In this document: positions 18,252 through 54,685 of the stretch, piece after piece
Layout of the letters: each line of letters opens with the position of its first letter
How positions within the stretch are numbered: the first letter of the stretch is position 1
IMG/VR virus record: IMGVR_UViG_3300021599_002910
Coordinates: 62,001 to 126,000 of that record
DNA: 64,000 bases
Strand: one strand, 5' to 3'
Origin: an uncultured virus (IMG/VR IMGVR_UViG_3300021599_002910)
Lineage: Duplodnaviria; Heunggongvirae; Uroviricota; Caudoviricetes
The notes under the pieces: model-generated
The model's input: only the letters and a program-made list of their open reading frames with translations
The model's database searches: none
What the model was told of the DNA's origin: nothing
Made by a program: the position numbers and the translations under genes

Positions 18252-18824
18252 TTATTCAAACCAGCAGATAAACGCTTTTCTCACCCCATTTGTGGTTGGC
18301 ATAACACCATGAACAAATTTCTCATCGCAACCAAATCCAAGAATTTTATTTTTTTCAGGTTTAACTAAAATGTCTAAAACAGGGAAATGAGTTTCACCAC
18401 CATCAAAACCTTCGTTCAGATATAAGACAGTAGTGTATTTTCTATTCGGAACATAATTCGGTATCCAATTTCCTTGATAGTTTGAATATGTGTTATTTTC
18501 TTTGGATGGAAGACCCATGACTCTATTTTCAGGGATTTCTGGCCAAACTGAATCTGCGTGATAATCGAAACCTCTTGTTTGATTCGCAAATCCACAGTAA
18601 TGTAATTTTAAATTTGTGCCATATGAATTTCTTACAAAAAAAAGATTTCTGTTGAAGATTCTCAAAAAAAGTGGAGAGTTGAAAATATCATCATCTTTAG
18701 AAATTTCATACCATTCATAAAAATTTTCCTCAGTGGAAAAAGATTTGTTGGTTTTTTCATTAAGAAAGGAAAACAGGAAGTTATTTTCTGTTTCATCGAT
18801 AAAATTATTTTTTATATGAACCAT
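18252..18824 (-). CDS. 2OG-Fe(II) oxygenase (prolyl-4-hydroxylase-like)
   Basis: YHAD, TTVLYLN..FDGGET.F, HGV..TTNGVR. Start moved to the ATG at 18824 because the upstream stretch is a tRNA-like RNA. Confidence 0.85.
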   Translation of the reverse strand: MVHIKNNFIDETENNFLFSFLNEKTNKSFSTEENFYEWYEISKDDDIFNSPLFLRIFNRNLFFVRNSYGTNLKLHYCGFANQTRGFDYHADSVWPEIPENRVMGLPSKENNTYSNYQGNWIPNYVPNRKYTTVLYLNEGFDGGETHFPVLDILVKPEKNKILGFGCDEKFVHGVMPTTNGVRKAFICWFE

Positions 18825-18826
18825 TG

Positions 18827-18984
18827 CTGTAAGGGAAGGATTCGAACCTTCATGCTGTGATTCGGTGGTGGACACATTTAGCGCGCTTTGTGGTCAACCC
18901 ATATCCAACACCTATCTCAAATTCAGCGCCCCCGAGACGAGGGGGTGTGTATGCCAAGTCCGCGGGACGTTTCACCACCTTACA
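18827..18984 (-). ncRNA. 158-nt tRNA-like RNA with enlarged D-loop and very long variable arm
   Basis: Acceptor stem TGTAAGG/CCTTACA; T-arm GAAGG-TTCGAAT-CCTTC; CCCCC-TCGTCTC-GGGGG arm. Confidence 0.7.
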
Positions 18985-18989
18985 AAGTG

Positions 18990-19077
18990 CGGAAAGAGTA
19001 GGATTCGAACCCACGGAACAGTTCCCCGTTCTCCTGATTTCAAGTCAGGTGCAATCGACCAGCTCTGCCATCTTTCC
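18990..19077 (-). tRNA. tRNA-Ser(TGA)
   Basis: Cloverleaf; CCTGA-CT-TGA-AA-TCAGG; long variable arm; G73. Confidence 0.95.
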
Positions 19078-33120: not shown

Positions 33121-33771
33121 TTACAAACCCAAAATATCGTCTACAATTTCTTGGCTTGATAAAGATTTCCATAATCTTGGATGTTGGTAAGACCAAAAAG
33201 TTTTCCAATTACCGAACCAAATGACACCCTCTTTTCTCGGGTCTACTGTTTTCCAATCATTACTGTTCTTTGGAAATTTACCTATCCTGTATGTCTTATA
33301 AGGTGTCAGATTTCTATCTTTGAATCTTGTTTCTGAGTATGAGTTAATTTCATCAAAATTTGAAATAATTTCTACGTGACATTCATTTCTTTTTTTGTAT
33401 GTCATACATCTTTTCAACCACACTGAAGCTTCGTCTAAATTATCCGTATCCAAAATAAATCTAACAAGTTGGTCTCGGTCATTATATCTGTGAGAGTAAA
33501 TTCTTTTCAATCCAAAAGTATCATCAAACTTATAAATTATGATTTCGAAGTCCATGTAAAACTCTATAGGTAGATGAAACTCTTTCATATACCAGTCATT
33601 CATAGTTGTGAAATGAATTCCCTCAACGATATAAGGTTGTTGGTCCCCTTTTTTAAATTCATGTAATTCAACATAATATAATTGTTCGGGTCCACCAACT
33701 CTGACTGTAATTCCTTTGTTAAAGTCAATCACAATTTTTTCATCACCTATTTGTGTAAACATAATTTCCAA
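33121..33771 (-). CDS. hypothetical protein
   Basis: 216-aa ORF directly downstream of the carbamoyltransferases. Confidence 0.65.
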   Translation of the reverse strand: MEIMFTQIGDEKIVIDFNKGITVRVGGPEQLYYVELHEFKKGDQQPYIVEGIHFTTMNDWYMKEFHLPIEFYMDFEIIIYKFDDTFGLKRIYSHRYNDRDQLVRFILDTDNLDEASVWLKRCMTYKKRNECHVEIISNFDEINSYSETRFKDRNLTPYKTYRIGKFPKNSNDWKTVDPRKEGVIWFGNWKTFWSYQHPRLWKSLSSQEIVDDILGL

Positions 33772-35335
33772 TAACTAATTTATCTAAAGTTTTATCTTGT
33801 AATTTAGAAAAGGCTTGTTCGGGGTTATCTACAATTGGTTCATTGTGAGTGTTGAAAGAAGTATTTAACAAAACAGGTATATTTGAAATTTTATAGTATT
33901 CATCAAGTATTTCCCAAAATTTGTAGTTCTTCTCTCTTTTTACAATCTGAGGTCTCGCAGTCTTATCTGATTTTTGGATTACCGCAGGTATTTTTTCAAT
34001 CCAATTCTCTTTAGTTTGATAACAAATAGTCATAAATTCTGCGGAGTATTTTGACTTTGTTTCAAAGAAAATTTCATCAAAATATTCTGACATTACAATA
34101 GGTGCAAATGGCATCGAATCATGTCTTTTCAACCTTTTGTTTAATTTACTATGAGTGTCTGAGCTTGTTGGTCTCATAAGAATACTTCTACCACCCAAGG
34201 CTCGTGGACCAAATTCAAATCCGTGTTGAAACCAACCGATAATTTCACCCTCATCAATATTCTTAGCGATTTCAGAAGGGTTATATATCTTTTTCTCAAA
34301 ATTATATTTTTGACTAATCAATGAAATTTGGTCATCATCATACTCTTTACCAAAAAAAACATTATCCAATTTGAATGGTTTTGTGATTTCACCCAAGTCT
34401 ACTGCTTTCTTTATACATGCACCTAAGCTTAACCCTTCGTCTCCCATAGGTGGAACAATATATATTTCCTCAACCCAAGGTAGTTGATTAATTTTTTGAT
34501 TTAATTTTACGTTGGCAAACAAACCACCAGAAAAACATAATTTTTTATAATCGGGAAATCTAGTGTGAAGGTCGTCTAAAAAATTAAGGAAAAGGTCTTC
34601 AGTTAATTTTTGTAAGTTAAACGAAAAAACCTGAAGTTTCTCTTGTGAGTCGAAATAACCTTTCCTGAACATTGTGTCTACAACAAATCTAGCTTTCGCA
34701 CCCGTATTCGATGGGAAAAATTTGAAGTCTTTGTAATCGATTATTGAATTCAGAATTTTATATATCCTCTCATCGTAAAACCCATCAGGTGCCATTCCCA
34801 TAAGTTTCCCTTCGTCTTTACACATTTTCCAAATGCTCTCTCCATTCTCGTTATATCCTCTAATTGAGGTCACACTGAATGCCCAAAGATGAGGTATACT
34901 TCCCGTTGTTGCAAAATCATAAGAATATGCCAAATTCATTTTACCATCTTCACAAAGGTAGACTTTCATTACGGTTTTGTCTCCTCCACCGTCGTATGAA
35001 ATACTTAAAACTTTTCCATCCATACCACTTGTAAAATAAGAACCATAGCAATGAGCATCGTGATGACCAACTCTCTCAAAATTATCCTTGGTCAATTTTT
35101 TTGCGAACGCATCGATTACCGGCTCAACAAAAACCCTATAATCAGCATCGTGAACATTAAGACCTGTGTATTTTTGAATTTCTTCTGAGGATAATTCTGG
35201 AAAACTGTCGAAGTTGTCACCAGCCTTAATTCTGGTTAATCTTTCTTCTTCTATACATGATACAATCTTTCCATTTCTAATTAAACACGCGGATGGACTA
35301 TGAGAACCACCAAAAAAACCATAAATCGTGCTCAT
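33743..35335 (-). CDS. carbamoyltransferase (CmcH/NodU family)
   Basis: EEERLTRIK, HHDAH, DGGGD, EGKLMGMA, GGLFANV, GDEG, EFGPRALG.RS, PFAP, LLNTSFN. Confidence 0.92.
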   Translation of the reverse strand: MSTIYGFFGGSHSPSACLIRNGKIVSCIEEERLTRIKAGDNFDSFPELSSEEIQKYTGLNVHDADYRVFVEPVIDAFAKKLTKDNFERVGHHDAHCYGSYFTSGMDGKVLSISYDGGGDKTVMKVYLCEDGKMNLAYSYDFATTGSIPHLWAFSVTSIRGYNENGESIWKMCKDEGKLMGMAPDGFYDERIYKILNSIIDYKDFKFFPSNTGAKARFVVDTMFRKGYFDSQEKLQVFSFNLQKLTEDLFLNFLDDLHTRFPDYKKLCFSGGLFANVKLNQKINQLPWVEEIYIVPPMGDEGLSLGACIKKAVDLGEITKPFKLDNVFFGKEYDDDQISLISQKYNFEKKIYNPSEIAKNIDEGEIIGWFQHGFEFGPRALGGRSILMRPTSSDTHSKLNKRLKRHDSMPFAPIVMSEYFDEIFFETKSKYSAEFMTICYQTKENWIEKIPAVIQKSDKTARPQIVKREKNYKFWEILDEYYKISNIPVLLNTSFNTHNEPIVDNPEQAFSKLQDKTLDKLVIGNYVYTNR

Positions 35336-35336
35336 A

Positions 35337-37007
35337 CTATCTTTTGATTAAATAATTTCCTATTACTAAGTAATCGAGTTTACAACTTAACATGGTGTCA
35401 ATTGCATTCTTTGGAGTTTCAACAATTGGTTCATGAGGGCCATTGAAACTCGTGTTGAGTAAAACTGGAACTCCTGTTTTGTTATAAAAACTCTCGATTA
35501 ATTTATAAAATTTATAATTAGATTTTTCTGAAACCGATTGATGTCTAGCGGAACCGTCAATGTGAGTTACTGCAGGTATTTTATCTCTCCAAGATTCTTT
35601 TACGTTAGTCGTAACCAACATATATGGAGAAAAAACATTAGAATCAAAAATTTCACTTTGGTGTTCAAATAACACGGCGGGTGCAAACGGTCTATACCAT
35701 TCTCTTTTTTTGATGTCTGAATTAATGTGACCTGTCATCCATTTGTTGATAGGTGATGCTAAGATTGAACGATTACCAAGAGCTCTAGGTCCAATTTCAG
35801 ATTGGTCTTGAAACCAGCCTATGACCCTATTTTGAGTTAACCAATGTGAGACTTTATCAACAAGTTCGTCAAAATCATCAAATCTTTCATGATATAAATT
35901 TGGGTATTGGTTTATTGCTGAAACAATATCATTGTTAGAATAATTTTTACCTATGTAAGGAGAAAGAAAATTATTTTTTTCAATCGGACTCATAAGTTGA
36001 TAACCATACCAGGCGCACCCTAAAGGGATTCCACTATCGTCAGAGGGAGGTATGAAGTAACAACCCTCAAACAATCCTGAGTTGAGGATTTTTTCGTTAG
36101 AATTACAATTAAGGAAAGACCCACCTGCCACGCAAATATTTTCAGAATCGGTCAATTCCTTTGCTTTCTTCGCTAACATTAGAGATACCCTTTCTTGTTC
36201 CCTTTGATATATTCCAGCAACACAAGCTCTTGAGAAAAAATCTGAATCATATGTCACTTTGGGATATATTCTATTATTTGGAATGAAAATATCTCCATCT
36301 TCTGTTTCAACAATATAATGTGGAGCTTCCTCGACTATGTCCTTGTCAGCATATGACGCAAGTCCCATCAGTTTACCTGCAGGCCAAGAATTGGTATTGG
36401 GTTCATAAATTAATTGAAGTGAACCTTCAGAGTAAACGGTTCCGACAGAAACATCTTCGTTAGTATCAATCGGAACAGGATATTTTATCCATTTCTTATA
36501 AACCTCTTTGTAATCATTTTTATTAAAATGATAAATTGAAATTGCTTCTGTCCAATCTTCTTCGTGATTGAGACCTTTCCTACTAACTTTCGGATACCAC
36601 TCAGGTAATTTATTTTTTTCATTCAAAATACTACCCGATGCGTCTGCAACAACCACAACGGCATCATCGAATCCTGAACTAAAAAAAGAAGAATATGCGT
36701 GGGCCAAATGATGAGGTAAAAACTCGAATTTACCCGTAGGGTCAAACTGAAATTCTTCGATAAACTTTTTTTGAACGTCATCAACAATTTCAGTTGTGCT
36801 GTAGACAAATAAATCGATATCTCTAAAAGTATATCCTGAATTTTCAAGACAATATCTTATAGATTCGGCAGGAATTAATCCACCTTGATGTGCTCCATCA
36901 TGTTTGATTCTTGAAATTCTTTCTTGAGTAATTCCAATCAAGACTTTTCCATTTTCAACAATAACAGCACCTTTGTCGTGTCCGACAGAAAATCCTAATA
37001 CCCTCAT
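35337..37007 (-). CDS. carbamoyltransferase (CmcH/NodU family)
   Basis: GHD, ERISRIKH, HHLAHAYS, AGKLMGLASY, GGSFLNC, EIGPRALGNRS, RPFAP, HIDGSAR.Q, LNTSFN. Confidence 0.93.
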   Translation of the reverse strand: MRVLGFSVGHDKGAVIVENGKVLIGITQERISRIKHDGAHQGGLIPAESIRYCLENSGYTFRDIDLFVYSTTEIVDDVQKKFIEEFQFDPTGKFEFLPHHLAHAYSSFFSSGFDDAVVVVADASGSILNEKNKLPEWYPKVSRKGLNHEEDWTEAISIYHFNKNDYKEVYKKWIKYPVPIDTNEDVSVGTVYSEGSLQLIYEPNTNSWPAGKLMGLASYADKDIVEEAPHYIVETEDGDIFIPNNRIYPKVTYDSDFFSRACVAGIYQREQERVSLMLAKKAKELTDSENICVAGGSFLNCNSNEKILNSGLFEGCYFIPPSDDSGIPLGCAWYGYQLMSPIEKNNFLSPYIGKNYSNNDIVSAINQYPNLYHERFDDFDELVDKVSHWLTQNRVIGWFQDQSEIGPRALGNRSILASPINKWMTGHINSDIKKREWYRPFAPAVLFEHQSEIFDSNVFSPYMLVTTNVKESWRDKIPAVTHIDGSARHQSVSEKSNYKFYKLIESFYNKTGVPVLLNTSFNGPHEPIVETPKNAIDTMLSCKLDYLVIGNYLIKR

Positions 37008-39499: not shown

Positions 39500-39573
39500 T
39501 GGGAAGTGGCTCAGCCCGGTAGAGCACCTGGTTTGGGACCAGGGGGCCGCAGGTTCGAATCCTGTCTTCCCAA
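39500..39573 (+). tRNA. tRNA-Pro(TGG)
   Basis: Cloverleaf; CCTGG-TT-TGG-GA-CCAGG. Confidence 0.95.
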
Positions 39574-39579
39574 CAAAAC

Positions 39580-39651
39580 GTCTTCTTAGCTCAGCGGTAG
39601 AGCATCTCGCTGTTAACGAGAGGGTCCATGGTTCGAGCCCATGAGAGGACG
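39580..39651 (+). tRNA. tRNA-Asn(GTT)
   Basis: Cloverleaf; TCTCG-CT-GTT-AA-CGAGA. Confidence 0.93.
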
Positions 39652-39654
39652 CAA

Positions 39655-39841
39655 AACAGGTGAAGACTGTGGTGGAACCCCACGGTATATGAATCCCAAA
39701 GACGCCGTCTTGATTCGCGGTATCAGAGCGGTGAGGGTAGTGTTTACTATAAGTCAGGAGTAATTAACCAAAGACGAAAATGTAACCACCAATGTAGTAA
39801 TATGTTGGTCATGATGTGTAAAAGGACACAAAAAACCTGTT
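39655..39841 (+). ncRNA. unknown ~187-nt multi-hairpin RNA within tRNA array 1
   Basis: Closing stem AACAGGT/ACCTGTT with several internal hairpins; GC-richer than the genome; no long ORF. Confidence 0.6.
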
Positions 39842-39846
39842 CAAAT

Positions 39847-39920
39847 GGAGCGGTAGTTCAGTTGGCTAGAATGCTTGCCTGTCACGCAAGAGGTCGCGGG
39901 TTCGAGCCCCGTCCGTTCCG
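39847..39920 (+). tRNA. tRNA-Asp(GTC)
   Basis: Cloverleaf; CTTGC-CT-GTC-AC-GCAAG. Confidence 0.95.
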
Positions 39921-40039
39921 CTGGTAGAGTTTGTCCGTGGTAACGGTCTAATGGGAGAAATCCTTGCAGACTTCTCCATCCAAAATCCAATCATTGTTTC
40001 ACTGGTGATTGGGCTAAATGTGAAGGAAAAACGGAATAT

Positions 40040-40112
40040 GCGGGAGTAGCTCATTTGGTAGAGCGATAGCCTTCCAAGCTATAGGTGGCCAGTTCGAGCC
40101 TGGTCTCCCGCT
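40040..40112 (+). tRNA. tRNA-Gly(TCC)
   Basis: Cloverleaf; ATAGC-CT-TCC-AA-GCTAT. Confidence 0.95.
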
Positions 40113-40121
40113 CAGAAAATT

Positions 40122-40194
40122 GCGGAAGTAGCTCATTCGGTAGAGCACGACCTTGCCAAGGTCGGGGTGGCCAGTTCGAGCCTGGTCTTCCGCT
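40122..40194 (+). tRNA. tRNA-Gly(GCC)
   Basis: Cloverleaf; CGACC-TT-GCC-AA-GGTCG. Confidence 0.95.
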
Positions 40195-40200
40195 CACATC

Positions 40201-40273
40201 GCCTCCTTAGCTCAGCAGGTAGAGCAACTGATTTGTAATCAGTAGGTCGTTGGTTCGATTCCGACAGGAGGCT
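40201..40273 (+). tRNA. tRNA-Thr(TGT)
   Basis: Cloverleaf; ACTGA-TT-TGT-AA-TCAGT. Confidence 0.95.
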
Positions 40274-40279
40274 CAAATA

Positions 40280-40352
40280 GGGGAATTAGCTCAGTTGGTA
40301 GAGCACTTGATTTGCATTCAAGTTGTCGTGGGTTCGACTCCCTCATTCTCCA
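40280..40352 (+). tRNA. tRNA-Ala(TGC)
   Basis: Cloverleaf; CTTGA-TT-TGC-AT-TCAAG; G3:U70. Confidence 0.93.
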
Positions 40353-40368
40353 CTAAAATTTGAAAGTT

Positions 40369-40602
40369 ATGGAAATTTTTTGGTCTTATTATTTAATCTG
40401 TTTGGCTTATTGTCTTGTCATGTCAGTAAGAAAATGGAACAGAGATGTTATGGCAGGTGGTCTTGGTATCTCACCTGGATTAGATACTTTAGGTTTGATT
40501 ATCATGTGTTGGGTGTTAGCACCTGTTGATATTACTCTAACTTGGATACGTATCTATAAGGAAGCGGAAGAGGCAAGAAGAAACAACACAAAAATTTACT
40601 AA
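40369..40602 (+). CDS. small membrane protein
   Basis: Two hydrophobic helices; ATG at 40369. Confidence 0.6.
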   Translation: MEIFWSYYLICLAYCLVMSVRKWNRDVMAGGLGISPGLDTLGLIIMCWVLAPVDITLTWIRIYKEAEEARRNNTKIY

Positions 40603-41201
40603 TGCATATCTCAGAGAAACACAAAGTTTATTGGTTTACCCCACAAAGAACAGGAACACGTTCAACTAAAGAACTTCTTCGTGTTATGGGTTTTCAAACT
40701 TTTGACCATCATTTTACATTTGATTCCAACAAAAAAGACTATTTCTTCGTATCAAACGTTAGAAACCCTTACTCTAGACTAGTATCCCTGTTTTATTTGT
40801 ATTCACATCATTTGAATGATTTTCAAAAACATTTCAAAACTTGGGTTTTCGAATCCCTCGAAAACCCGAAAATAATTAATGATTATCAATTACAATATCA
40901 TAAAAATTATGAAATTTTGGGTAGACCATTTGATAAATTCATAAAACAGGAAAATTTGGAGAATGACCTCAAGTCTTTGAAATTTTTGGATTTGGAGAAT
41001 TCCGATATCAAGAAAACCTTTGATGAGTTCATAAGTAATAACAAATTCAAAACAGAATTTGAAGGACAAATGAATGAAAAAAGGAAACCATGGAAGGAAT
41101 TTTATGATGAAGAAGTATCCAACTACGTTTATAAAATTTTTGAGGAGCAATTTCATTTATTTGGTTATCGAAAAGAATCTTGGAGAAATGTCACACCCTA
41201 A
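40602..41201 (+). CDS. sulfotransferase family 2-like protein
   Basis: PQRTGTRS (5'-PSB-like loop); VRNPYSRLVS (3'-PB); FGY at the C-terminus. Confidence 0.75.
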   Translation: MHISEKHKVYWFTPQRTGTRSTKELLRVMGFQTFDHHFTFDSNKKDYFFVSNVRNPYSRLVSLFYLYSHHLNDFQKHFKTWVFESLENPKIINDYQLQYHKNYEILGRPFDKFIKQENLENDLKSLKFLDLENSDIKKTFDEFISNNKFKTEFEGQMNEKRKPWKEFYDEEVSNYVYKIFEEQFHLFGYRKESWRNVTP

Positions 41202-41541
41202 TTTACATGCAAAAAGTTCCGCTAAAAAGTTTGGTGGAAAACCTGAGGATTATATTCATTTACATGAGTGGATGGATGAGACCAAAGGTTGGTTCGGGGA
41301 TTCTTTACACAGAATGTTTAGACATCATTCGGAAGGGATTTTCGAAATGGAAAAGAGGTTTGGTCCTGAATTCAAAAACAGTGATGGTAAGACAGTCTAC
41401 ACCCGATATGTTGGTGAACAACACGTAAAGGAAGATTGTAATAATTATATCCCTTCCGCAAAAGAATGGATAAACAACATGGTATCGAACACAAGGCCAT
41501 CTTGGATGTTGAAAACAATAAAATTAGAGTTCGAAGATTGA
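41188..41541 (+). CDS. conserved phage protein (DUF6915-like)
   Basis: MSHP..HAKSS.KKFGG...DY...H.WMDE.K...HR..RHH.EGIF...EQHV.ED. Confidence 0.7.
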   Translation: MSHPNLHAKSSAKKFGGKPEDYIHLHEWMDETKGWFGDSLHRMFRHHSEGIFEMEKRFGPEFKNSDGKTVYTRYVGEQHVKEDCNNYIPSAKEWINNMVSNTRPSWMLKTIKLEFED

Positions 41542-41554
41542 TATTTATATTATC

Positions 41555-42259
41555 ATGAAAGATTTATTAACTAAAGACGAAAAAAAGTATTTAAATCGTA
41601 TCTGTCGTTATTTAGGTTCCATCGGAATGGAAGATGCATTTGTCGAATTCGAAATGAATACCTCTTATTTTGATTGTGACGATATCGATTGGAAAAATGT
41701 AACACATTTTTCAAATAATTACGTTGCGGAAATTCCTGAAGGATTAATTCCAATTTTTCAGAAAAGCATTTATTATGTTTGTGAAAATGAACTAATTAAA
41801 CAACCCGAATATGACGATATCAATTGGGGAAGAGTTATGATTGAGATTGATTGTAAAACTAGAGAAATTTCAATCTCCTATGACTATAGCTACTATGATG
41901 TTGGGAATACCGAATCTATTACTCATTCTTTGGAAGAAGACGACAATGAGGATTTAATGGAGCTTTTTGATACGTTAGAAAACGACGAGGAAATTAGTGA
42001 TAGAGTCCTTCAACTTGACTACAATGGAAGTGGTGACTCTGGTTACTTGGAAGACGATTTTACAAATGGTGATTCTGTTCCTGCGGTGGTTTCAGACTAC
42101 GCATACAGAATGCTTGAAAATAATTTTGGTGGATGGGAAATCAACGAAGGTTCTCAAGGTAATTTCGAAATTGATTTGGACCGTAAAGAGATAACCTTAA
42201 ATCACACAATGAATATTGAAGAAACAGAAAGAGATACTGTTTGGGAAGAAAAGTTCTAA
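41555..42259 (+). CDS. acidic protein with DUF6878-like C-terminal domain
   Basis: YNGSGDSG...GWEINEGSQG.F. Confidence 0.65.
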   Translation: MKDLLTKDEKKYLNRICRYLGSIGMEDAFVEFEMNTSYFDCDDIDWKNVTHFSNNYVAEIPEGLIPIFQKSIYYVCENELIKQPEYDDINWGRVMIEIDCKTREISISYDYSYYDVGNTESITHSLEEDDNEDLMELFDTLENDEEISDRVLQLDYNGSGDSGYLEDDFTNGDSVPAVVSDYAYRMLENNFGGWEINEGSQGNFEIDLDRKEITLNHTMNIEETERDTVWEEKF

Positions 42260-42301
42260 TTCATTTGTTTTTTCAATACTGATTCCTTACTTTTGTTTTA
42301 T

Positions 42302-42388
42302 ACCTTGGTGGCGAAATCGGTATACGCGCAAGACTTAAAATCTTGTGGACAGAAAATGTCCGTGTGGGTTCAAGTCCCACCTGAGGTA
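42302..42388 (+). tRNA. tRNA-Leu(TAA)
   Basis: Cloverleaf with long variable arm; CAAGA-CT-TAA-AA-TCTTG. Confidence 0.93.
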
Positions 42389-42504
42389 ATGAAATTGGAT
42401 TTGTTGTTGGGAGAGTTTATAATAGTATGACCCAAGAAGAAATAAATGATTTCATAAAAGGGTTTGAACACGGAGTTTCTCTAACAAACGGAACTCACTA
42501 AAAT

Positions 42505-42585
42505 ACCCCGATGGCGTAATGGTAGCCGCGTTGGTCTTAGGAACCAATGACTTCGGTCGTGAGAGTTCGAGTCTCTCTTGGGGTA
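42505..42585 (+). tRNA. tRNA-Leu(TAG)
   Basis: Cloverleaf with long variable arm; TTGGT-CT-TAG-GA-ACCAA. Confidence 0.93.
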
Positions 42586-42596
42586 CAGAAAAATAA

Positions 42597-42627
42597 TTTG
42601 ATTTTTAAAAGAGATTTACTATATTTG
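42597..42627 (+). promoter_or_regulatory. Bacteroidota-type promoter upstream of leader 2
   Basis: TTTG (42597-42600) and TATATTTG (42620-42627) match the -33/-7 consensus. Confidence 0.55.
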
Positions 42628-42644
42628 TAGTAATTATAATAATA

Positions 42645-42725
42645 ATGAGAACAATAGTGCGTAATAAAGTCTATAGTAAACAACAAGAGATTTGTTGGTT
42701 TAAGACACGCGCTGTAGTCTCATGA
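42645..42725 (+). CDS. putative leader peptide of tRNA array 2 (26 aa)
   Basis: MRTIVRNKVYSKQQEICWFKTRAVVS*. Confidence 0.65.
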   Translation: MRTIVRNKVYSKQQEICWFKTRAVVS

Positions 42726-42758
42726 GATAGCCTATAATTCCTGAAGAGTTATATATAC

Positions 42759-42800
42759 AAACCTCGGACTACAGAAATGAAGTTCGGGGTTTTTTTATTT
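42759..42800 (+). terminator. intrinsic terminator / putative attenuator before tRNA array 2
   Basis: AAACCTCGGACT/AGTTCGGGGTTT stem plus T-run. GACTACAG (42767-42774) is complementary to CTGTAGTC (42712-42719) in the leader. Confidence 0.75.
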
Positions 42801-42812
42801 AAGGAGTTTTTG

Positions 42813-42823
42813 GTTCTTTGAAA
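42813..42823 (+). promoter_or_regulatory. boxA-like antitermination element
   Basis: GTTCTTTGAAA; the same 11-mer lies just upstream of the tmRNA. Confidence 0.5.
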
Positions 42824-42848
42824 TAATGGTTGTAAGTTTGTAATTCTT

Positions 42849-42920
42849 GGCCCCGTCGTCTAAAGGTTAGGACGCCACCCTTTCACGGTGGAGATTTCGG
42901 TTCGAGTCCGTGCGGGGCTA
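42849..42920 (+). tRNA. tRNA-Glu(TTC)
   Basis: Cloverleaf; CCACC-CT-TTC-AC-GGTGG. Confidence 0.93.
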
Positions 42921-42927
42921 CAAATTC

Positions 42928-43000
42928 AGTCTCTTAGCTCAGTTGGAAGAGCACTTGCCTTACATGCAAGGTGTCGTAGGTTCGATTCCTACAGGGACTA
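42928..43000 (+). tRNA. tRNA-Val(TAC)
   Basis: Cloverleaf; CTTGC-CT-TAC-AT-GCAAG. Confidence 0.93.
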
Positions 43001-43005
43001 CAAAT

Positions 43006-43079
43006 GGTGACGTAGCTCAGTTGGGCTTAGGCGGAAGTCTGCAAAACTTTCTACGTAGGTTCGATTCCTATCCTGACCT
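43006..43079 (+). tRNA. tRNA-Cys(GCA), with two acceptor-stem mismatches
   Basis: GAAGT-CT-GCA-AA-ACTTT; U73; acceptor GGTGACG/CCTGACC has G:G and C:C mismatches. Confidence 0.75.
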
Positions 43080-43085
43080 CAATAA

Positions 43086-43159
43086 TGGAATGTAACTCAG
43101 TTGGTTAGAGTGCTAATCTGATACGTTAGATGTCGGCGGTTCGAATCCGCCCATTCCAA
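43086..43159 (+). tRNA. tRNA-Ile(GAT)
   Basis: Cloverleaf; CTAAT-CT-GAT-AC-GTTAG. Confidence 0.92.
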
Positions 43160-43173
43160 CAAATAAAATTGTT

Positions 43174-43698
43174 ATGAGACGTAAAATTATTTTTATTGAT
43201 GTAGATGGACCACTGGCATGGGGAACTTGGGGTGATGGGAGAGTTACGCTGAACGAACACAGTAAAACTTTTACAATCCCTTACCCATGGGTTGAAGATG
43301 ATTGTCAAGCACTTCAAAAAATTTGTGATGAAACAAACGCAAGTTTAGTTGTGAGTTCGGATTGGAGAAAACATTTCAGTTTTATACAATTAAAACGTAT
43401 TTTCCAATACTATGGTGTAACAGCTCCGATTGTAGATATCACAACCCATCAGGACCTTTGGAATAAACTTAGTAGACCTTCAATTGAGTGGGAAAGAGCA
43501 GCAGAAATCACAAAGTGGGTAAAAGATAATAAAATCTCAAATTGGATTTCAATCGACGACATGAAACTTGATGGTCAATATAAATGGATGAAACCAAGAG
43601 TTCCGATGTGGAGACACGTTCAGGTAGATGGTGACTTCGGGTATGGTGGTAGATTAAGAGATAAAATAGATGAATGTATAAAAAAACTTGAGAGATAA
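43174..43698 (+). CDS. HAD-superfamily phosphatase (Swiss-Army-knife RNA-repair-type HAD)
   Basis: IIFIDVDG.L, LVVSSDWR, R..EI..W, WISIDD. Confidence 0.8.
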   Translation: MRRKIIFIDVDGPLAWGTWGDGRVTLNEHSKTFTIPYPWVEDDCQALQKICDETNASLVVSSDWRKHFSFIQLKRIFQYYGVTAPIVDITTHQDLWNKLSRPSIEWERAAEITKWVKDNKISNWISIDDMKLDGQYKWMKPRVPMWRHVQVDGDFGYGGRLRDKIDECIKKLER

Positions 43699-43726
43699 TT
43701 CGTTATCTTTGTATAAATAAAAAATT

Positions 43727-44275
43727 ATGAAAATCAATAGAGCGGATTTGTTATGGTTCCTGAATAACATCCGAAGAAAACAAGAAGGAAAAGAACTAAG
43801 TGATGAGATGCTTGTTGACCACTTAGCGCATTACATGGAGGCAAATCCAAGATGTGTTGATATGTTAGGTGTAAGCACTCGTGGTAGATTCAGTTATTCA
43901 ACTGTGGGATATGGTGTATTTTCACTCATGGGTGAAAAATACAGAATGGGTAGAATCGAGGTTTTCGACAGTAAAAATGAAAGTGGATATCAGGTTCATG
44001 AAGGAATCTACACAATGCCTTATGAATCGGCAAGTCAATTCGAAGATTTTATCGAATCCTTGGAAACTGACTTACCAATAAACATAGAGATAGGTTCTCA
44101 CAACTGGTGTGAAGAGGAATGTGCGAAATCATTAGGTTTCAAAGATTCCGATGAAATGAGAGACCCCGATAAAGTGAAAGAATATACTCGGAAAAAAAAC
44201 GATGAGTATGCTCGTGAACAAGGATATGAAGATTGGGATGACTTACTCTCTAAAAGTAAATGGACGAAAAAATAA
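43727..44275 (+). CDS. hypothetical protein
   Basis: 182-aa ORF; TATCTTTG upstream. Confidence 0.7.
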   Translation: MKINRADLLWFLNNIRRKQEGKELSDEMLVDHLAHYMEANPRCVDMLGVSTRGRFSYSTVGYGVFSLMGEKYRMGRIEVFDSKNESGYQVHEGIYTMPYESASQFEDFIESLETDLPINIEIGSHNWCEEECAKSLGFKDSDEMRDPDKVKEYTRKKNDEYAREQGYEDWDDLLSKSKWTKK

Positions 44276-44280
44276 GTCAC

Positions 44281-44353
44281 GCGTGCGTAGCTCAATTGGT
44301 AGAGTACTAGTCTCCAAAACTAGGTGTTGTAGGTTCGAGTCCTACCGTGCGTG
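44281..44353 (+). tRNA. tRNA-Trp(CCA)
   Basis: Cloverleaf; CTAGT-CT-CCA-AA-ACTAG. Confidence 0.93.
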
Positions 44354-44358
44354 CAAAT

Positions 44359-44491
44359 AGGTTGATTGGGGAATGGTGATACTAATGACTCGAGAGTGTA
44401 TTTCGGTCTGTATCATCGGAGTTGGGAGAAATACACCTGAGTAATGCCAATCGTAAAAGGAGATGTCCACGCAACCATCTTCTCCTTTCCT
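44359..44491 (+). ncRNA. unknown ~133-nt structured RNA with a potential pseudoknot
   Basis: GATTGG/CCAATC, ACTC/GAGT, GTGTATTTC/GAAATACAC, AAAGGAGA/TCTCCTTT stems; crossing GGTGATAC/GTATCATC pairing. Confidence 0.6.
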
Positions 44492-44495
44492 TAAT

Positions 44496-44577
44496 GGGAG
44501 TATCGCCTAGTGGCAATGGCAGAAGACTGTAAATCTTCCCTCTTTCGAGTTCGTTGGTTCGAGTCCAGCTACTCCCA
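44496..44577 (+). tRNA. tRNA-Tyr(GTA)
   Basis: Cloverleaf with long variable arm; GAAGA-CT-GTA-AA-TCTTC. Confidence 0.93.
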
Positions 44578-44580
44578 CAA

Positions 44581-44642
44581 AAATGATTGAAGTCCTGAGT
44601 GGTGTCAGGAGGAAGTAACACAACCAAGTGTAACAATCATTT
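44581..44642 (+). ncRNA. unknown 62-nt three-way-junction RNA
   Basis: AAATGATTG/CAATCATTT closing stem; TCCTGA/TCAGGA and ACAC/GTGT hairpins. Confidence 0.55.
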
Positions 44643-44644
44643 AA

Positions 44645-44718
44645 GGACCCTTAGCTCAGTTGGTTAGAGCGGCTGACTCATAATCAGTAGGTCCACGGTT
44701 CAAGTCCGTGAGGGTCCA
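44645..44718 (+). tRNA. tRNA-CAT (probably Ile2; elongator Met not excluded)
   Basis: GCTGA-CT-CAT-AA-TCAGT; paired G1-C72, so not fMet; GGACCCT acceptor resembles Ile2. Confidence 0.85.
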
Positions 44719-44723
44719 CATTA

Positions 44724-44794
44724 TATCCTCTGGTGTAACGGTAACACAATTGGTTTTGGTCCAATTATTCAAGGTTCGAATCCTTGGGGGATAA
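44724..44794 (+). tRNA. tRNA-Gln(TTG)
   Basis: Cloverleaf; ATTGG-TT-TTG-GT-CCAAT; U1-A72. Confidence 0.92.
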
Positions 44795-44889
44795 CAAATT
44801 TTTATTATGAATAATATTTGTGGAATTCACGGAACACTTTTAGACAAAGACGGACTTTGTCCGAAATGTTTAGAAGAAAATAACAGATA

Positions 44890-44962
44890 GGTCTTATCGT
44901 ATAATGGATGAATACACTTCGCTACGGACGAAGAAATTTGGGTTCGAATCCTAGTAAGACCT
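44890..44962 (+). tRNA. tRNA-Arg(ACG)
   Basis: Cloverleaf; CTTCG-CT-ACG-GA-CGAAG. Confidence 0.92.
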
Positions 44963-44974
44963 CGTAAGTAATAT

Positions 44975-45048
44975 GGTGAACGTAGCTCAGTTGGAAGAGC
45001 ACTAGCTTGTGGCGCTAGTTGTCGTGGGTTCGAACCCCATCGTTCACA
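44975..45048 (+). tRNA. tRNA-His(GTG)
   Basis: CTAGC-TT-GTG-GC-GCTAG; G-1 present; discriminator reads A rather than C. Confidence 0.88.
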
Positions 45049-45052
45049 CAAA

Positions 45053-45137
45053 GGAGAGTTGCCTGAGTGGTTAAAGGAGCAGTTTGCTAAACTGTGGTCG
45101 AGCAATTGGCCTATTGGTTCGAATCCAATACTCTCCG
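45053..45137 (+). tRNA. tRNA-Ser(GCT)
   Basis: Cloverleaf with long variable arm; GCAGT-TT-GCT-AA-ACTGT. Confidence 0.93.
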
Positions 45138-54283: not shown

Positions 54284-54292
54284 AATCTGCTG

Positions 54293-54685
54293 TGGAGAAG
54301 ACGGGAGTCGAACCCGTGTCTTGTTCGCGACAACTATAAGTGACTACACGTTTATTACAACATTGTTTCTCAATGTTCCGAAATATTAGGTTTGATATAT
54401 GTGAGAAACCCACCTACAAACAACTTGGTCTCAGAATTATTTTAAACGAGCTCTGACCTGTGACCCGTATATTGGACTTCTGTTCCTAGGTTAATGTCCT
54501 AACCGACCCGAGTGTCGTGACTTAAATTAAGCAACAACAGTAGCTTCTTCAGCGATTAAACCGATAGCAGCCATCTTAGCAAAAGTATTGCCATTTGTTT
54601 TTTCAAATCAGTTGATAAAGGAGTTAACTCAGCTCCTACGTGCCACCTATAACTACACACGCCAATCAATTGCCATGACTTCCCC
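54293..54685 (-). ncRNA. ssrA: tmRNA
   Basis: 5' GGGGAAG pairs with 3' CTTCTCC (G3:U70); T-arm GGGTTCGACTCCC; tag ORF at 54592-54527 reads GNTFAKMAAIGLIAEEATVVA*. Confidence 0.92.

What the first reader, a model, noticed from the sequence alone, without database searches (positions are those of the whole stretch)
18827..18984. 158-nt tRNA mimic with hairpin-expanded D-loop, non-canonical anticodon loop and ~80-nt variable arm
It lies directly downstream of tRNA-Ser(TGA) on the minus strand. It has a perfect 7-bp acceptor stem and a canonical T-arm. The Leu-like D-arm (GGTGAAA...GGCATACAC) carries an inserted GTCC-CGC-GGAC hairpin. The anticodon arm CCCCC-TCGTCTC-GGGGG has GTC in the centre but lacks U33 and purine 37, so it is unlikely to decode normally. 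The long arm pairs GCTG/CAGC and GGTG-TGGATAT/GTGTCCA-CACC. Inference: a non-decoding tRNA-like RNA, for example a decoy for tRNA-targeting defences or a protein-binding adaptor.
Basis: partly seen in the sequence, partly recalled or inferred. Interest (0 to 1): 0.72.

Follow-up and report, generated by a model that had tools for sequence, protein, structure and literature searches.

The report
Self-pairing tRNA-Asp look-alike of phages
A freshwater giant phage carries a gene for a 158-base RNA that folds like a transfer RNA but cannot read codons, keeps the marks of an aspartate tRNA, bears self-complementary tips that should let copies pair with each other, and belongs to a large, undescribed family of phage RNAs.

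Summary
The element is not a decayed tRNA. It belongs to a conserved RNA family: 67 distinct sequences on at least 85 uncultivated phage contigs, with one copy in each of four complete genomes. Rfam, GenBank phages and ARAGORN do not find it.

New findings:
- The tRNA tertiary core is invariant.
- The anticodon-position loop is an invariant G34-U35-C36 with Y33 and U37.
- The acceptor end is fixed (U1:A72, G2:C71, G73). This is the aspartate identity set on a class-II body.
- The tip of the long arm, and in most members the D-loop insert, are perfect palindromes. Their sequence drifts but their self-complementarity is kept, which points to RNA-RNA self-association.

Best reading (inferred): a tRNA-processed, non-decoding, self-pairing tRNA-Asp mimic. 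It would engage a host factor that reads tRNA-Asp, most likely AspRS or else an anticodon nuclease.

The closest known analogues are T4 RNA C and T5 RNA1, whose functions are also unknown. Earlier notes of this scan describe similar oversized phage tRNA look-alikes on other DNA, but none matched this sequence.

The parts
18827..18984 (-). Whole tRNA-shaped RNA gene (158 nt; RNA position p = 18985 - coordinate)
   Evidence: sequence. Model R1 scores it 157.7 bits, E 6e-38. It is single copy in the record.
18978..18984 (-). Acceptor stem, 5' strand UGUAAGG (p1-7)
   Evidence: Pairs with 18828-18834. Pairs 4-7 covary. U1:A72 is found in 66 of 66 complete distinct members and G2:C71 in 64 of 66.
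18827..18834 (-). Acceptor stem, 3' strand CCUUACA (p151-157) plus discriminator G73 (18827)
   Evidence: G73 is found in 66 of 66. The next base, 18826, is C74 in 66 of 66. CCA is encoded in only 2 of 67.
18947..18975 (-). D arm (p10-38): 3-bp stem GUG/CAC; loop with A14, A15, G18, G19, A21
   Evidence: The U11:A24 to C:G switch occurs in 10 of 49. A14, A15, G18 and G19 are found in 67 of 67. The closest ordinary tRNA by R1 is the phage's own tRNA-Leu(UAA), 34.6 bits.
18958..18968 (-). D-loop insert GUCC-CGC-GGAC (p17-27); contains the 6-nt palindrome CCGCGG
   Evidence: An insert is present in 65 of 67 distinct members (63 of length 14-27). 25 of 46 distinct insert sequences are perfect palindromes of 8 nt or more (shuffled mean 6.7, max 13). 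The window's copy belongs to the hairpin class with a 3-nt loop.
18929..18945 (-). Anticodon-position arm CCCCC-UCGUCUC-GGGGG (p40-56); G34 U35 C36 = 18936-18938
   Evidence: The fourth stem pair covaries (AU 38, UA 16, CG 5, UG 5, GC 3). GUC is found in 67 of 67, U37 in 66 of 67, C33 in 60 with U33 in 7, and position 38 is C 54, A 12, U 1.
18852..18928 (-). Long variable region (p57-133). It has a basal helix GCUG/CAGC plus UGA/UCA with a 5'-side bulge, a purine-rich internal loop GAUA/GAA, a distal helix, and a large conserved terminal loop
   Evidence: Helices 4-6 are 91.5-99.5% paired, and 11 of their 13 pairs show compensatory change. MI adds two more pairs, columns 94:134 and 95:133.
18890..18900 (-). 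Invariant block GGGUUGACCAC (p85-95) in the terminal loop; possible mini-hairpin UGG-GUUGA-CCA
   Evidence: It never varies in the 49-member alignment except at the third loop base. Because the family was first collected with this motif, that invariance is partly by design. A motif-independent scan finds only small variants (GGAUUGACCAC, GGGGUUGACCACC).
18880..18887 (-). Palindrome AGCGCGCU (p98-105), the proposed intermolecular pairing site
   Evidence: 66 of 67 distinct members carry a Watson-Crick palindrome of 6-12 nt here. There are 15 different palindromes and 7 different central tetramers, all self-complementary. 37 of 38 distinct segments carry one, against a shuffled mean of 9.0 and max of 17.
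18835..18851 (-). T arm GAAGG-UUCGAAU-CCUUC (p134-150)
   Evidence: 4 of its 5 pairs covary. G53, U54, U55, C56 and A58 are found in 67 of 67.
18990..19077 (-). tRNA-Ser(UGA), directly upstream and probably co-transcribed
   Evidence: The same arrangement is seen in L010, L018, L121 and L208. An ordinary T arm ends within about 10 nt upstream in 11 of 67 members.
40378..40599 (+). Homologue of the small two-helix membrane protein. In other phages this protein is encoded immediately upstream of the RNA
   Evidence: tblastn-type hit, E 1.8e-16. The ORF ends at the element in 32 of 67 members. It has no Pfam or PHROG family. 74 relatives were found, all unnamed or 'hypothetical'.

Best explanation
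The stretch is a real gene for a stable, tRNA-shaped RNA that does not decode. It belongs to an undescribed family of freshwater phage RNAs.

Shown:
- It sits among the phage's tRNA genes.
- It keeps a 7/5 acceptor/T branch and a class-II (long-arm) body.
- It keeps every core tertiary nucleotide.
- Its 3' flank looks like that of the phage's real tRNAs: C74 is encoded and CCA is not.
- Its anticodon-position loop is an invariant Y33-G34-U35-C36-U37.
- Its acceptor end is fixed as U1:A72, G2:C71, G73.
- The tip of its long arm, and in most members the D-loop insert, are perfect palindromes. Their letters change between phages but their self-complementarity does not.

Inferred:
- Host RNase P cuts it out, its 3' end is trimmed, and it receives CCA like a tRNA.
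- C33, U37, the D-loop insert and the 77-nt arm keep it off the ribosome.
- Copies pair with each other through the palindromes, as dimers. Where both sites are palindromic, larger assemblies are possible.
- The GUC loop with G73, G2:C71, G10 and C38 is the aspartate identity set. The assembly would therefore present itself to a host factor that reads tRNA-Asp. The most likely client is the dimeric aspartyl-tRNA synthetase, which it would bind and which might charge it. The effect could be titration of the enzyme, or supply of Asp-RNA for a non-ribosomal use.
For: Family and structure: there are 82 model matches, 67 of them distinct, on at least 85 IMG/VR contigs (72 of the 80 loci plus 13 further contigs; both scans hit their limits). 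There is one copy in each of 4 complete genomes. 98% of pair cells are paired, 23 of 36 pairs are compensatory, and slid controls give 38-51%. The top 12 mutual-information pairs are all in the model.

tRNA core: U8, G9, A14, A15 with U48, G18, G19 and the T loop are found in 67 of 67. The 26:44 pair switches isosterically, A.C 46 and G.U 11.

Processing like a tRNA: C74 is found in 66 of 66 and CCA is encoded in 2 of 67. The same holds for 20 of the window's 21 real tRNAs. Four complete genomes encode no CCA-adding enzyme and no class IIb synthetase, so host enzymes would have to act.

Aspartate marks: GUC is found in 67 of 67, G73 in 66 of 66, G2:C71 in 64 of 66, G10 in 64 of 67 and C38 in 54 of 67. 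Giege and Eriani 2023 (PMC9976931, passages read) list G73, G34, U35, C36 and C38 as the five strong determinants, with G2:C71 as a bacterial one.

Self-pairing: figures for the arm-tip palindrome are and for the D-loop insert. Three variants keep pairing only through G.U on the sense strand (L084, L209, L223), which points to the RNA level. ROOL and GOLLD are a precedent: phage RNAs 'often near tRNA islands' that form RNA-only multimers (bioRxiv 10.1101/2024.12.08.627333, passages read).
Against: - No experiment or read data show the RNA, its ends, CCA addition, charging or dimers. The only RNA-library contigs laid were from relatives and prove nothing.
- Bacterial tRNA-Asp has G1:C72, but this RNA has U1:A72. 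C38 is not universal (54 of 67).
- From my own knowledge of the solved complexes, class II synthetases approach tRNA from the variable-loop side. A 77-nt arm there could hinder AspRS.
- 21 of 46 D-loop insert types are not perfect palindromes, the window's own among them, and 2 members have no insert.
- Invariance of the GGGUUGACCAC block is partly a consequence of how I collected the family.
- Palindromes could in principle act at the DNA level.
Confidence: 0.4

Rival explanations
1. It is a decoy or inhibitor for a host tRNA-cutting defence that reads GU-type anticodon loops (a colicin-E5-like or other anticodon nuclease). The mimic would offer a tRNA-Asp-like loop on a non-translating body and soak up or jam the nuclease.
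For: The loop is Y33-G34-U35-N36 in 67 of 67 members. That is exactly the determinant YGUN found for colicin E5, and C33 is as good as U33 (PMC1635277, abstract and passages read). The gene sits among phage tRNA genes, which are thought to counter tRNA-targeting defences (PMC10264068, seen only as a search listing and abstract). Features that bar decoding would suit a decoy.
Against: A nuclease that reads only the anticodon loop does not explain why U1:A72, G2:C71 and G73 are fixed while pairs 4-7 vary freely. It also does not explain the self-pairing palindromes. One gene copy per genome would have to out-compete the whole tRNA pool. No such nuclease is known for the unknown hosts.
Confidence: 0.2
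2. It is an RNA-only architectural assembly. The tRNA body serves only as a folding and processing scaffold, and the function lies in the multimer (encapsulation, tethering, or a platform for a phage protein). No synthetase is involved.
For: There are two independent self-complementary sites, a conserved purine-rich internal loop, and a possible GNRA-like pentaloop that could make tertiary contacts (the motif assignment is my inference). ROOL and GOLLD set a precedent in phage tRNA islands.
Against: This reading leaves the invariant GUC-U loop and the fixed acceptor end unexplained. The D-loop palindrome is missing in many members.
Confidence: 0.15
3. It is a cis-acting processing and stability element. 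A tRNA-like 3' module lets RNase P define the 3' end of the upstream message (small membrane protein or tRNA-Ser transcript), and it has no role of its own.
For: The small-protein ORF ends 0-7 nt before the element, or overlaps it by 5 nt, in 32 of 67 members. In three of them (L052, L080, L084) the stop codon lies inside the element.
Against: In the window the small-protein gene lies 21 kb away, at 40378-40599, and the RNA follows tRNA-Ser instead. Any tRNA would serve this purpose. It does not explain the invariant loop, the palindromes or the 77-nt arm. No antisense pairing to the upstream ORF was found beyond shuffled controls.
Confidence: 0.1
4. It is a working tRNA after all: either a nuclease-resistant tRNA-Asp that decodes GAY, or a precursor whose inserts are spliced out.
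For: It has a GUC triplet at positions 34-36, a complete L-shape core and tRNA-like flanks.
Against: - C33 is found in 60 of 67 and U37 in 66 of 67.
- The phage already has a normal tRNA-Asp(GUC) at 39847-39920 with loop CUGUCAC.
- There is no intron family hit, and ARAGORN intron calls are inconsistent (17 of 51).
- Removing the arm would still leave the abnormal loop.
- The inserts carry conserved sequence, unlike spacers.
Confidence: 0.05
5. It is a decayed pseudo-tRNA with no function.
For: ARAGORN and Rfam do not call it. The single-sequence folding z-score is weak.
Against: 67 distinct homologues keep all helices through compensatory changes, and they keep long invariant blocks.
Confidence: 0.01

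Closest known systems
Phage T4 species 1 RNA (rnaC, 139 nt; AF158101 70908-71046)
   Same: It is a stable RNA of unknown role encoded at the end of a phage tRNA cluster. It has a canonical T arm and an acceptor-like end and is about twice tRNA size (annotation and fold).
   Different: There is no homology at model level: R1 gives 15.9 bits, below T4's real tRNAs. Its body differs, with no GUC loop and no palindromic tip seen in its fold.
Phage T5 RNA1 (144 nt; AY543070 30501-30644, annotated 'tRNA-like stable RNA with unknown functions')
   Same: It has a class-II tRNA body in a phage tRNA cluster, is oversized, and has no known function.
   Different: By the R1 alignment, its 47-nt insert lies in the anticodon loop, not in the variable arm. 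It scores 27.1 bits, the level of any class-II tRNA.
Class-II tRNAs (Leu, Ser, Tyr), especially the phage's own tRNA-Leu(UAA)
   Same: They share the 3-bp D stem, the GAAA...GG.A.A D loop, the A15:U48 pair, and a long arm leaving between the anticodon and T arms. tRNA-Leu(UAA) is the best ordinary hit, at 34.6 bits.
   Different: The arm is 77 nt rather than 13-21. There is a hairpin or palindrome inside the D loop. The discriminator is G73, not A73. The loop has C33 and U37. ARAGORN and RF00005 do not detect it.
Bacterial tRNA-Asp (identity set for AspRS) and the tRNA-Asn acceptor end
   Same: It has G34 U35 C36, C38 (in most members), G73, G2:C71 and G10. L012's loop CUGUCUC differs from the phage tRNA-Asp loop CUGUCAC only at position 37. 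U1:A72 is the mark that amidotransferases read on tRNA-Asn (PMC9976931).
   Different: It has U1:A72 instead of G1:C72, a class-II body, U37, and C33 in most members. Charging has not been tested.
ROOL and GOLLD RNAs (phage RNAs near tRNA islands that form RNA-only multimers)
   Same: They are phage-encoded, sit in tRNA islands, have no known function, and self-associate (shown for them by cryo-EM and inferred here).
   Different: They are 500-800+ nt, are not tRNA-shaped, and have Rfam families. Here the unit is a 158-nt tRNA fold, and pairing is predicted only from palindrome conservation.
Retroviral dimerization initiation site (loop palindromes such as GCGCGC)
   Same: It is a short perfect palindrome in a loop whose letters vary between lineages while self-complementarity is kept. 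The window's AAGCGCGCU resembles it (my recollection of the HIV-1 site; no call).
   Different: The molecule and biology are unrelated. This is an analogy of mechanism only.
Pseudo-tRNA 'tRNA-Other' of Bacillus cereus; non-proteinogenic tRNA-Gly of staphylococci
   Same: They are tRNA-shaped RNAs kept away from normal decoding and used for regulation or as amino-acid donors.
   Different: They are cellular, of normal tRNA size, and lack an expanded arm or palindromes.

Membership tests
Canonical tRNA (Rfam RF00005 / ARAGORN) | Detected by the tRNA covariance model or ARAGORN | tested here: not met
   There was no call at the element in the window, in 30 related loci, or in 10 loci at E<=1. Local ARAGORN with defaults called 0 of 51.
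Canonical tRNA (Rfam RF00005 / ARAGORN) | 7-nt anticodon loop with U33 and a purine at 37 | tested here: not met
   The loop is 7 nt, but C33 is found in 60 of 67 and U37 in 66 of 67 (C in 1).
Canonical tRNA (Rfam RF00005 / ARAGORN) | 7-bp acceptor stem, 5-bp T stem, T loop, and the D-loop/T-loop tertiary nucleotides | tested here: met
   U8, A14, G18, G19, U54, U55, C56 and A58 are found in 67 of 67.
Intron-containing tRNA | A consistent excisable insert that leaves an ordinary tRNA; a group I core or a bulge-helix-bulge | tested here: not met
   ARAGORN -i called 17 of 51, with different anticodons and intron sites. No Rfam intron hit was found. The inserts carry invariant sequence. Splicing itself cannot be tested with these tools.
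tmRNA | tRNA-like domain without an anticodon arm, plus a conserved tag reading frame ending in a stop | tested here: not met
   There is no RF00023 hit at the element, whereas the phage's true tmRNA at 54290-54685 scores 76.4 bits. Read by eye sequences, the AUG-GGU-UGA frame is not kept (GGUAGA and GGUGGA variants occur).
allo-tRNA (8/4 or 9/3 branch) | 12-bp acceptor/T branch split 8/4 or 9/3 | tested here: not met
   The branch is 7/5 in all aligned members. The paper PMC5389517 was seen only as a listing and abstract.
Bacterial Y RNA-like YrlA | The 5' and 3' ends form the Ro-binding stem, and the tRNA-like module is internal | tested here: not met
   Here the 5' and 3' ends form the acceptor stem. 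PMC4201824 was seen only as a listing and abstract.
T4 RNA C / T5 RNA1 (phage tRNA-like stable RNAs) | Sequence and structure homology to those RNAs | tested here: not met
   R1 gives 15.9 bits on rnaC and 27.1 bits on RNA1, against 112-179 bits for family members.
T4 RNA C / T5 RNA1 (phage tRNA-like stable RNAs) | Same kind: an oversized tRNA-like gene inside a phage tRNA cluster that accumulates as a stable RNA | tested here: inconclusive
   Location and shape are met. Accumulation as a stable RNA is not shown (one search was uninformative).
AspRS substrate (aspartate identity) | G73, G34, U35, C36 and C38 (strong determinants); G2:C71 and G10 (bacterial) | tested here: met
   G73 66 of 66; GUC 67 of 67; C38 54 of 67; G2:C71 64 of 66; G10 64 of 67. 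The determinant list comes from PMC9976931.
AspRS substrate (aspartate identity) | G1:C72, strictly conserved in bacterial tRNA-Asp | tested here: not met
   U1:A72 is found in 66 of 66.
AspRS substrate (aspartate identity) | Actual binding and aspartylation | not testable with these tools
   This needs an aminoacylation assay.
Self-pairing (kissing or duplex) RNA homodimer | A loop sequence kept self-complementary through sequence change | tested here: met
   Arm tip: 66 of 67 members, 15 palindromes, 7 central tetramers. D-loop insert: 25 of 46 types.
Self-pairing (kissing or duplex) RNA homodimer | Physical dimer or oligomer | not testable with these tools
   RNAcofold gives -13 to -16 kcal/mol for dimer against two monomers, using the palindromes. 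It cannot model kissing loops, and this gain is expected from any palindrome.

The most novel reading that the evidence does not exclude
A phage-made, tRNA-processed RNA that carries the aspartate identity set and two independent self-complementary interfaces. It would assemble into RNA-only dimers or closed or chain oligomers that display several acceptor ends and GUC loops. This would be a small tRNA-based quaternary RNA machine that captures, or is charged by, the dimeric host AspRS. Possible uses are to reprogramme aspartate/asparagine tRNA metabolism or to disarm a tRNA-Asp-directed defence.
Probability: 0.15. Interest if true: 0.88.

Novelty: new variant of a known kind. Interest (0 to 1): 0.76.

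Why it matters
Phage tRNA clusters have been known for about fifty years to hold oversized 'stable RNAs' whose function is unknown, such as T4 RNA C and T5 RNA1. This family offers a much better handle on the kind. It has dozens of diverged members, a fully resolved secondary structure and an intact tRNA core. It also gives two concrete, testable clues: an aspartate-type identity set, and palindromes that predict self-association. If the clues hold, the family would link tRNA mimicry with the newly recognised RNA-only multimers of phages (ROOL, GOLLD). It would also show a new way for viruses to address a host synthetase or a tRNA-directed defence. The family is absent from Rfam, and standard tRNA finders skip it, so it is currently unannotated in hundreds of kilobases of phage sequence.

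Tried and rejected
- Rfam at the gathering threshold and at E<=10, and ARAGORN, gave nothing at the element.
- GenBank phages (INPHARED): the window query matched only through tRNA-Ser. A typical member found no match at E<=0.01.
- Cellular genomes: the 18-nt motif hit 110 stretches. That is within the roughly 280 I expect by chance for 16 fixed bases in 596 Gb (my arithmetic). Only 2 are true members, both on MAG contigs of 518 nt and 14 kb.
- The intron reading was rejected.
- The RNAalifold helix at columns 118-120/128-130 was rejected. It breaks in the GCGCGC variants, whereas the palindrome rule holds.
- I considered by eye a pseudoknot between the 5' bulge of the arm and the palindrome region (CCGG in L006). 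I dropped it because the bulge varies while the palindrome stays GCCGGC. The MI scan found no non-nested pair of comparable strength apart from tertiary-type pairs.
- Antisense pairing of the invariant block to the upstream small ORF is no better than shuffles and has no fixed site (one search was a script error).
- Expression: 4 RNA-labelled runs were laid. Only contigs of relatives (90-99% alike) lay on the stretch, and there were no ends or joints. This is uninformative.
- Fremin et al. 2023 list a candidate, DNAVirus_1850, with 27 IMG/VR sites, one of which overlaps an ARAGORN tRNA-Asp call. It might be this family. The supplements that would tell could not be read.
- Earlier notes of this scan were searched by sequence and nothing was found. 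The genome-wide place search also gave none.
- No class IIb synthetase (PF00152) and no CCA-adding enzyme (PF01743) were found in 4 complete related genomes. A fifth, L087, is not held and was not searched.
- The bacterial Schlafen paper (PMC13056530, passages read) and 'Structural assemblies for an RNA world' (one passage read) held nothing on this RNA.
- The sigma-70 and terminator scan around the window copy gave nothing above shuffles.
- Literature searches that found no description of this family.
Full report
WHERE IT LIES. The window is bases 62001-126000 of a 137-kb IMG/VR virus record rated 45% complete. Identical copies of the element lie in records of 317-321 kb, one of them complete with terminal repeats. 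The host phage is therefore a jumbo phage of about 320 kb. The window is 30-39% G+C. It holds 21 tRNA genes and a tmRNA gene. Runs that hold the stretch are mostly labelled freshwater or lake metagenomes.

THE OBSERVATION.
- It has a 7-bp acceptor stem, U8 G9, and a 3-bp D stem.
- The D loop carries GUCC-CGC-GGAC.
- A26 is followed by CCCCC-UCGUCUC-GGGGG, then a 77-nt variable region, then a canonical T arm and G73.
- It starts 5 nt after tRNA-Ser(UGA).

The MFE fold gives the same cloverleaf. Its energy is unremarkable: z = -1.25, and 25 of 200 shuffles fold as well. ARAGORN and Rfam ignore the element. The single sequence alone would not settle anything.

HOMOLOGUES.
- A scan of IMG/VR with the 17-nt anticodon-arm motif gave 7 loci: four identical to the window and two divergent types.
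- A scan with the arm-tip motif returned 80 loci, the cap. Of these, 72 hold the element. The other 8 look like chance hits in coding DNA; my parser found no element in them and I did not give them to the model.
- A third scan used a loop motif with the covarying positions left open. 34 of its 80 fetched loci are members, 13 of them on further contigs and with altered arm tips.
- Model R1, built from 49 sequences, finds 82 matches in the 82 sources I gave it. They score 112-179 bits and 67 are distinct.
- There is one copy in the window's record and one in each of four complete genomes of 179-321 kb.
- GenBank phages hold no match.
- Of 110 motif hits in 596 Gb of prokaryote genomes, only 2 are members, both on MAG contigs.

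The family is therefore viral, common and unannotated.

STRUCTURE.
- RNAalifold and my pair counts agree on eight helices. 98.0% of 1761 cells are standard pairs and 23 of 36 pairs change on both sides. 0 of 500 shuffles reach these values, and slid partners give 38-51%.
- My parser demanded paired acceptor and T stems, so those two helices are partly selected. The D stem, the anticodon-position stem and the three helices of the long arm were not selected, and they covary strongly.
- The 12 highest mutual-information pairs all belong to the model. Two further pairs extend the distal helix.
- The tRNA core is intact. U8, G9, A14, A15 with U48, G18, G19, G53, U54, U55, C56 and A58 are found in 67 of 67.
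- The 26:44 pair switches between the isosteric A.C (46) and G.U (11). A D-loop position also covaries with the base before U48.
- This is a true L-shaped, class-II tRNA fold. The nearest ordinary tRNA by R1 is the phage's own tRNA-Leu(UAA), at 34.6 bits.

IT IS MADE LIKE A tRNA (INFERRED).
- The base after G73 is C in 66 of 66 members, while CCA is encoded in only 2 of 67.
- 20 of the window's 21 genuine tRNA genes show the same pattern: C74, then no CA.
- The element follows a tRNA by about 5 nt in 11 of 67 members. In 32 of 67 it follows a small ORF, by 0-7 nt or overlapping it.
- Four complete related genomes encode no CCA-adding enzyme.
- It follows that host RNase P, 3' trimming and the host CCA enzyme would be the maturation route. 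No read data confirm this.

IT DOES NOT DECODE.
- The loop is Y32-Y33-G-U-C-U37-M38. C33 is found in 60 of 67 and U37 in 66 of 67, so the 'defects' are the selected state.
- The phage also has a normal tRNA-Asp(GUC) with loop CUGUCAC.
- ARAGORN with introns allowed gives 17 mutually inconsistent calls in 51.
- No intron or ribozyme family matches.

WHAT IS CONSERVED BEYOND THE FOLD.

(a) The acceptor end. Pairs 4-7 vary freely, but U1:A72 is found in 66 of 66, G2:C71 in 64 of 66 and G73 in 66 of 66.

(b) G34 U35 C36 is found in 67 of 67, C38 in 54 of 67 and G10 in 64 of 67. According to Giege and Eriani 2023 (passages read), aspartate identity rests on G73, G34, U35, C36 and C38, with G2:C71 and G1:C72 conserved in bacteria. 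U1:A72 is the mark that amidotransferases read on tRNA-Asn. The RNA therefore carries the aspartate set on an Asn/Gln-type first pair. A reader that touches both the anticodon loop and the acceptor end, as a synthetase does, explains both conserved sites at once. A loop-only reader does not.

(c) The tip of the long arm. After the invariant GGGUUGACCAC comes a perfect palindrome.
- A Watson-Crick palindrome of 6-12 nt is present in 66 of 67 members. There are 15 different sequences, for example AGCCGGCU, AGCGCGCU (the window), AAGCAUGCUU, GCUCGAGC, GCUUGCAAGC, GCGUACGC and AAGCUU.
- There are seven different central tetramers, all self-complementary.
- 37 of 38 distinct segments carry one, against a shuffled mean of 9.0 and max of 17.
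- The centre of a palindrome cannot pair within one hairpin. A tetraloop would be self-complementary by chance 1 time in 16. The constraint is therefore on pairing between two copies.
- Three variants keep pairing only by G.U on the sense strand, which favours RNA over DNA as the level of selection.

(d) The D-loop insert. 25 of 46 distinct inserts are perfect palindromes of 8-14 nt, such as GCGUACGC, GUAGCUAC and GGAUAUAUCC (shuffled mean 6.7, max 13). As hairpins they are weak, at 0 to -2.8 kcal/mol. The others are ordinary hairpins, among them the window's GUCC-CGC-GGAC, which still holds CCGCGG. Two members have no insert.

Most members thus have two self-complementary sites. In principle this allows dimers, chains or closed assemblies. 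RNAcofold prefers the dimer by 13-16 kcal/mol, but that is expected of any palindrome and is not independent evidence.

CONTEXT.
- A conserved 75-residue, two-helix membrane protein is encoded right before the RNA in 32 of 67 members. It has no Pfam or PHROG family and 74 unnamed relatives.
- The window's homologue of that protein sits in the main tRNA cluster at 40378-40599.
- A phage tmRNA lies within 1.5 kb in 11 of 30 loci examined, and tRNA-Leu(UAA) in 16 of 30.
- I found no antisense relation between the RNA and the small ORF.

HOW IT MOST LIKELY WORKS.

Shown: the family, the fold, the tRNA-like flanks, the invariant loop and acceptor end, and the conserved palindromes.

Inferred, in decreasing confidence:
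1. It is a stable RNA matured by the tRNA machinery.
2. It is excluded from translation.
3. Copies associate through the arm-tip palindrome, and often through the D-loop palindrome as well.
4. Its client is a factor that reads tRNA-Asp. I rank host AspRS first. AspRS is itself a dimer (my knowledge), and it is the only known reader of both conserved sites.

Points against AspRS:
- The first pair is U1:A72.
- C38 is not universal.
- Class II enzymes approach from the variable-arm side (my knowledge), where the 77-nt arm sits.

The main rival is a decoy for a GU-reading anticodon nuclease. Colicin E5's determinant is YGUN, with C33 as good as U33 (PMC1635277), and the loop fits this in 67 of 67. 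That rival leaves the acceptor end and the palindromes unexplained.

COMPARISON WITH WHAT IS KNOWN.
- T4 species 1 RNA (rnaC) and T5 RNA1 are annotated stable, tRNA-like RNAs of unknown function in phage tRNA clusters. They are the same kind of thing but not relatives: R1 gives 15.9 and 27.1 bits. T5's insert lies in the anticodon loop, not the variable arm.
- ROOL and GOLLD are phage RNAs 'often near tRNA islands' that form RNA-only cages. They are a precedent for self-association, not relatives.
- Fremin et al. 2023 catalogued about 10,000 candidate viral RNAs. One of them, DNAVirus_1850, has 27 sites, and one site overlaps an ARAGORN tRNA-Asp call. It may be this family, but I could not read the supplements.
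- Earlier notes of this scan describe comparable oversized, non-decoding phage tRNA look-alikes on other genomes. One is a 157-base gene beside a phage tmRNA. None shares sequence words with this family.

VERDICT. The 'non-decoding tRNA-like RNA' reading is supported, while the specific role remains open. I class it as a new variant of a known kind. The identity set and the conserved palindromes make a long-standing puzzle directly testable.

Noticed in passing
window 54290-54685 (-); L020, L038, L043, L055, L067: The phage encodes its own tmRNA (76.4 bits) with the unusual tag AEEATVVA*. Several related phages have tmRNAs that ARAGORN reads with long tags, such as DEMSTMTFEDLMSFVGADYALAA*.
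   Followed up: no
window 40378-40599 (+); L054:1605-1832 (-): This is a conserved 75-residue, two-helix membrane protein with no Pfam or PHROG family. Its stop codon lies 0-7 nt before the tRNA-like RNA, or inside its first 5 nt, in 32 of 67 members. RNase P cleavage at U1 would then leave a message that ends at or within its stop codon, in phages that carry a tmRNA.
   Followed up: partly
L060:980-1094 (+), L017:1808-1931 (+), L229:142-281 (+), L019:1034-1117 (+): The same phages hold other over-long tRNA-like hits: RF00005 at 34.8 and 34.7 bits over 115 and 124 nt, a 140-nt R1 hit of 27.4 bits, and a tRNA-Sec-like hit of 38.7 bits, below its threshold.
   Followed up: no
3' flanks of the element in L016, L031, L043, L050, L054, L055, L070, L073, L079 and others: A conserved trailer, CCUGAACACAGUG, follows the RNA in several otherwise different contigs. 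A second group shares AGUUACUGUUCUUUGACAUAUAAGGAGAAAU, which is probably the promoter and ribosome site of the next gene.
   Followed up: no
window, all tRNA genes (39500-45137 and 18990-19077): 20 of 21 tRNA genes encode C74 but not C75-A76, mostly as N73-CAA. The set lacks tRNA-Lys and tRNA-Phe.
   Followed up: partly
window 39652-39846 (+): A 195-nt gene-free gap lies between tRNA-Asn and tRNA-Asp inside the tRNA cluster. It could hold another small RNA but was not examined.
   Followed up: no
window 33743-37007 (-): Two adjacent Nol-like carbamoyltransferase genes match phrog_1601 (E 2e-87 and 2e-105). A Lon-like ATP-dependent protease lies at 57317-59332.
   Followed up: no
window 18252-18824 (-): A 2OG-Fe(II) oxygenase gene (PF13640, E 4.7e-09) starts 3 nt after the RNA's G73 on the same strand. 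This neighbour is specific to the window's phage.
   Followed up: partly
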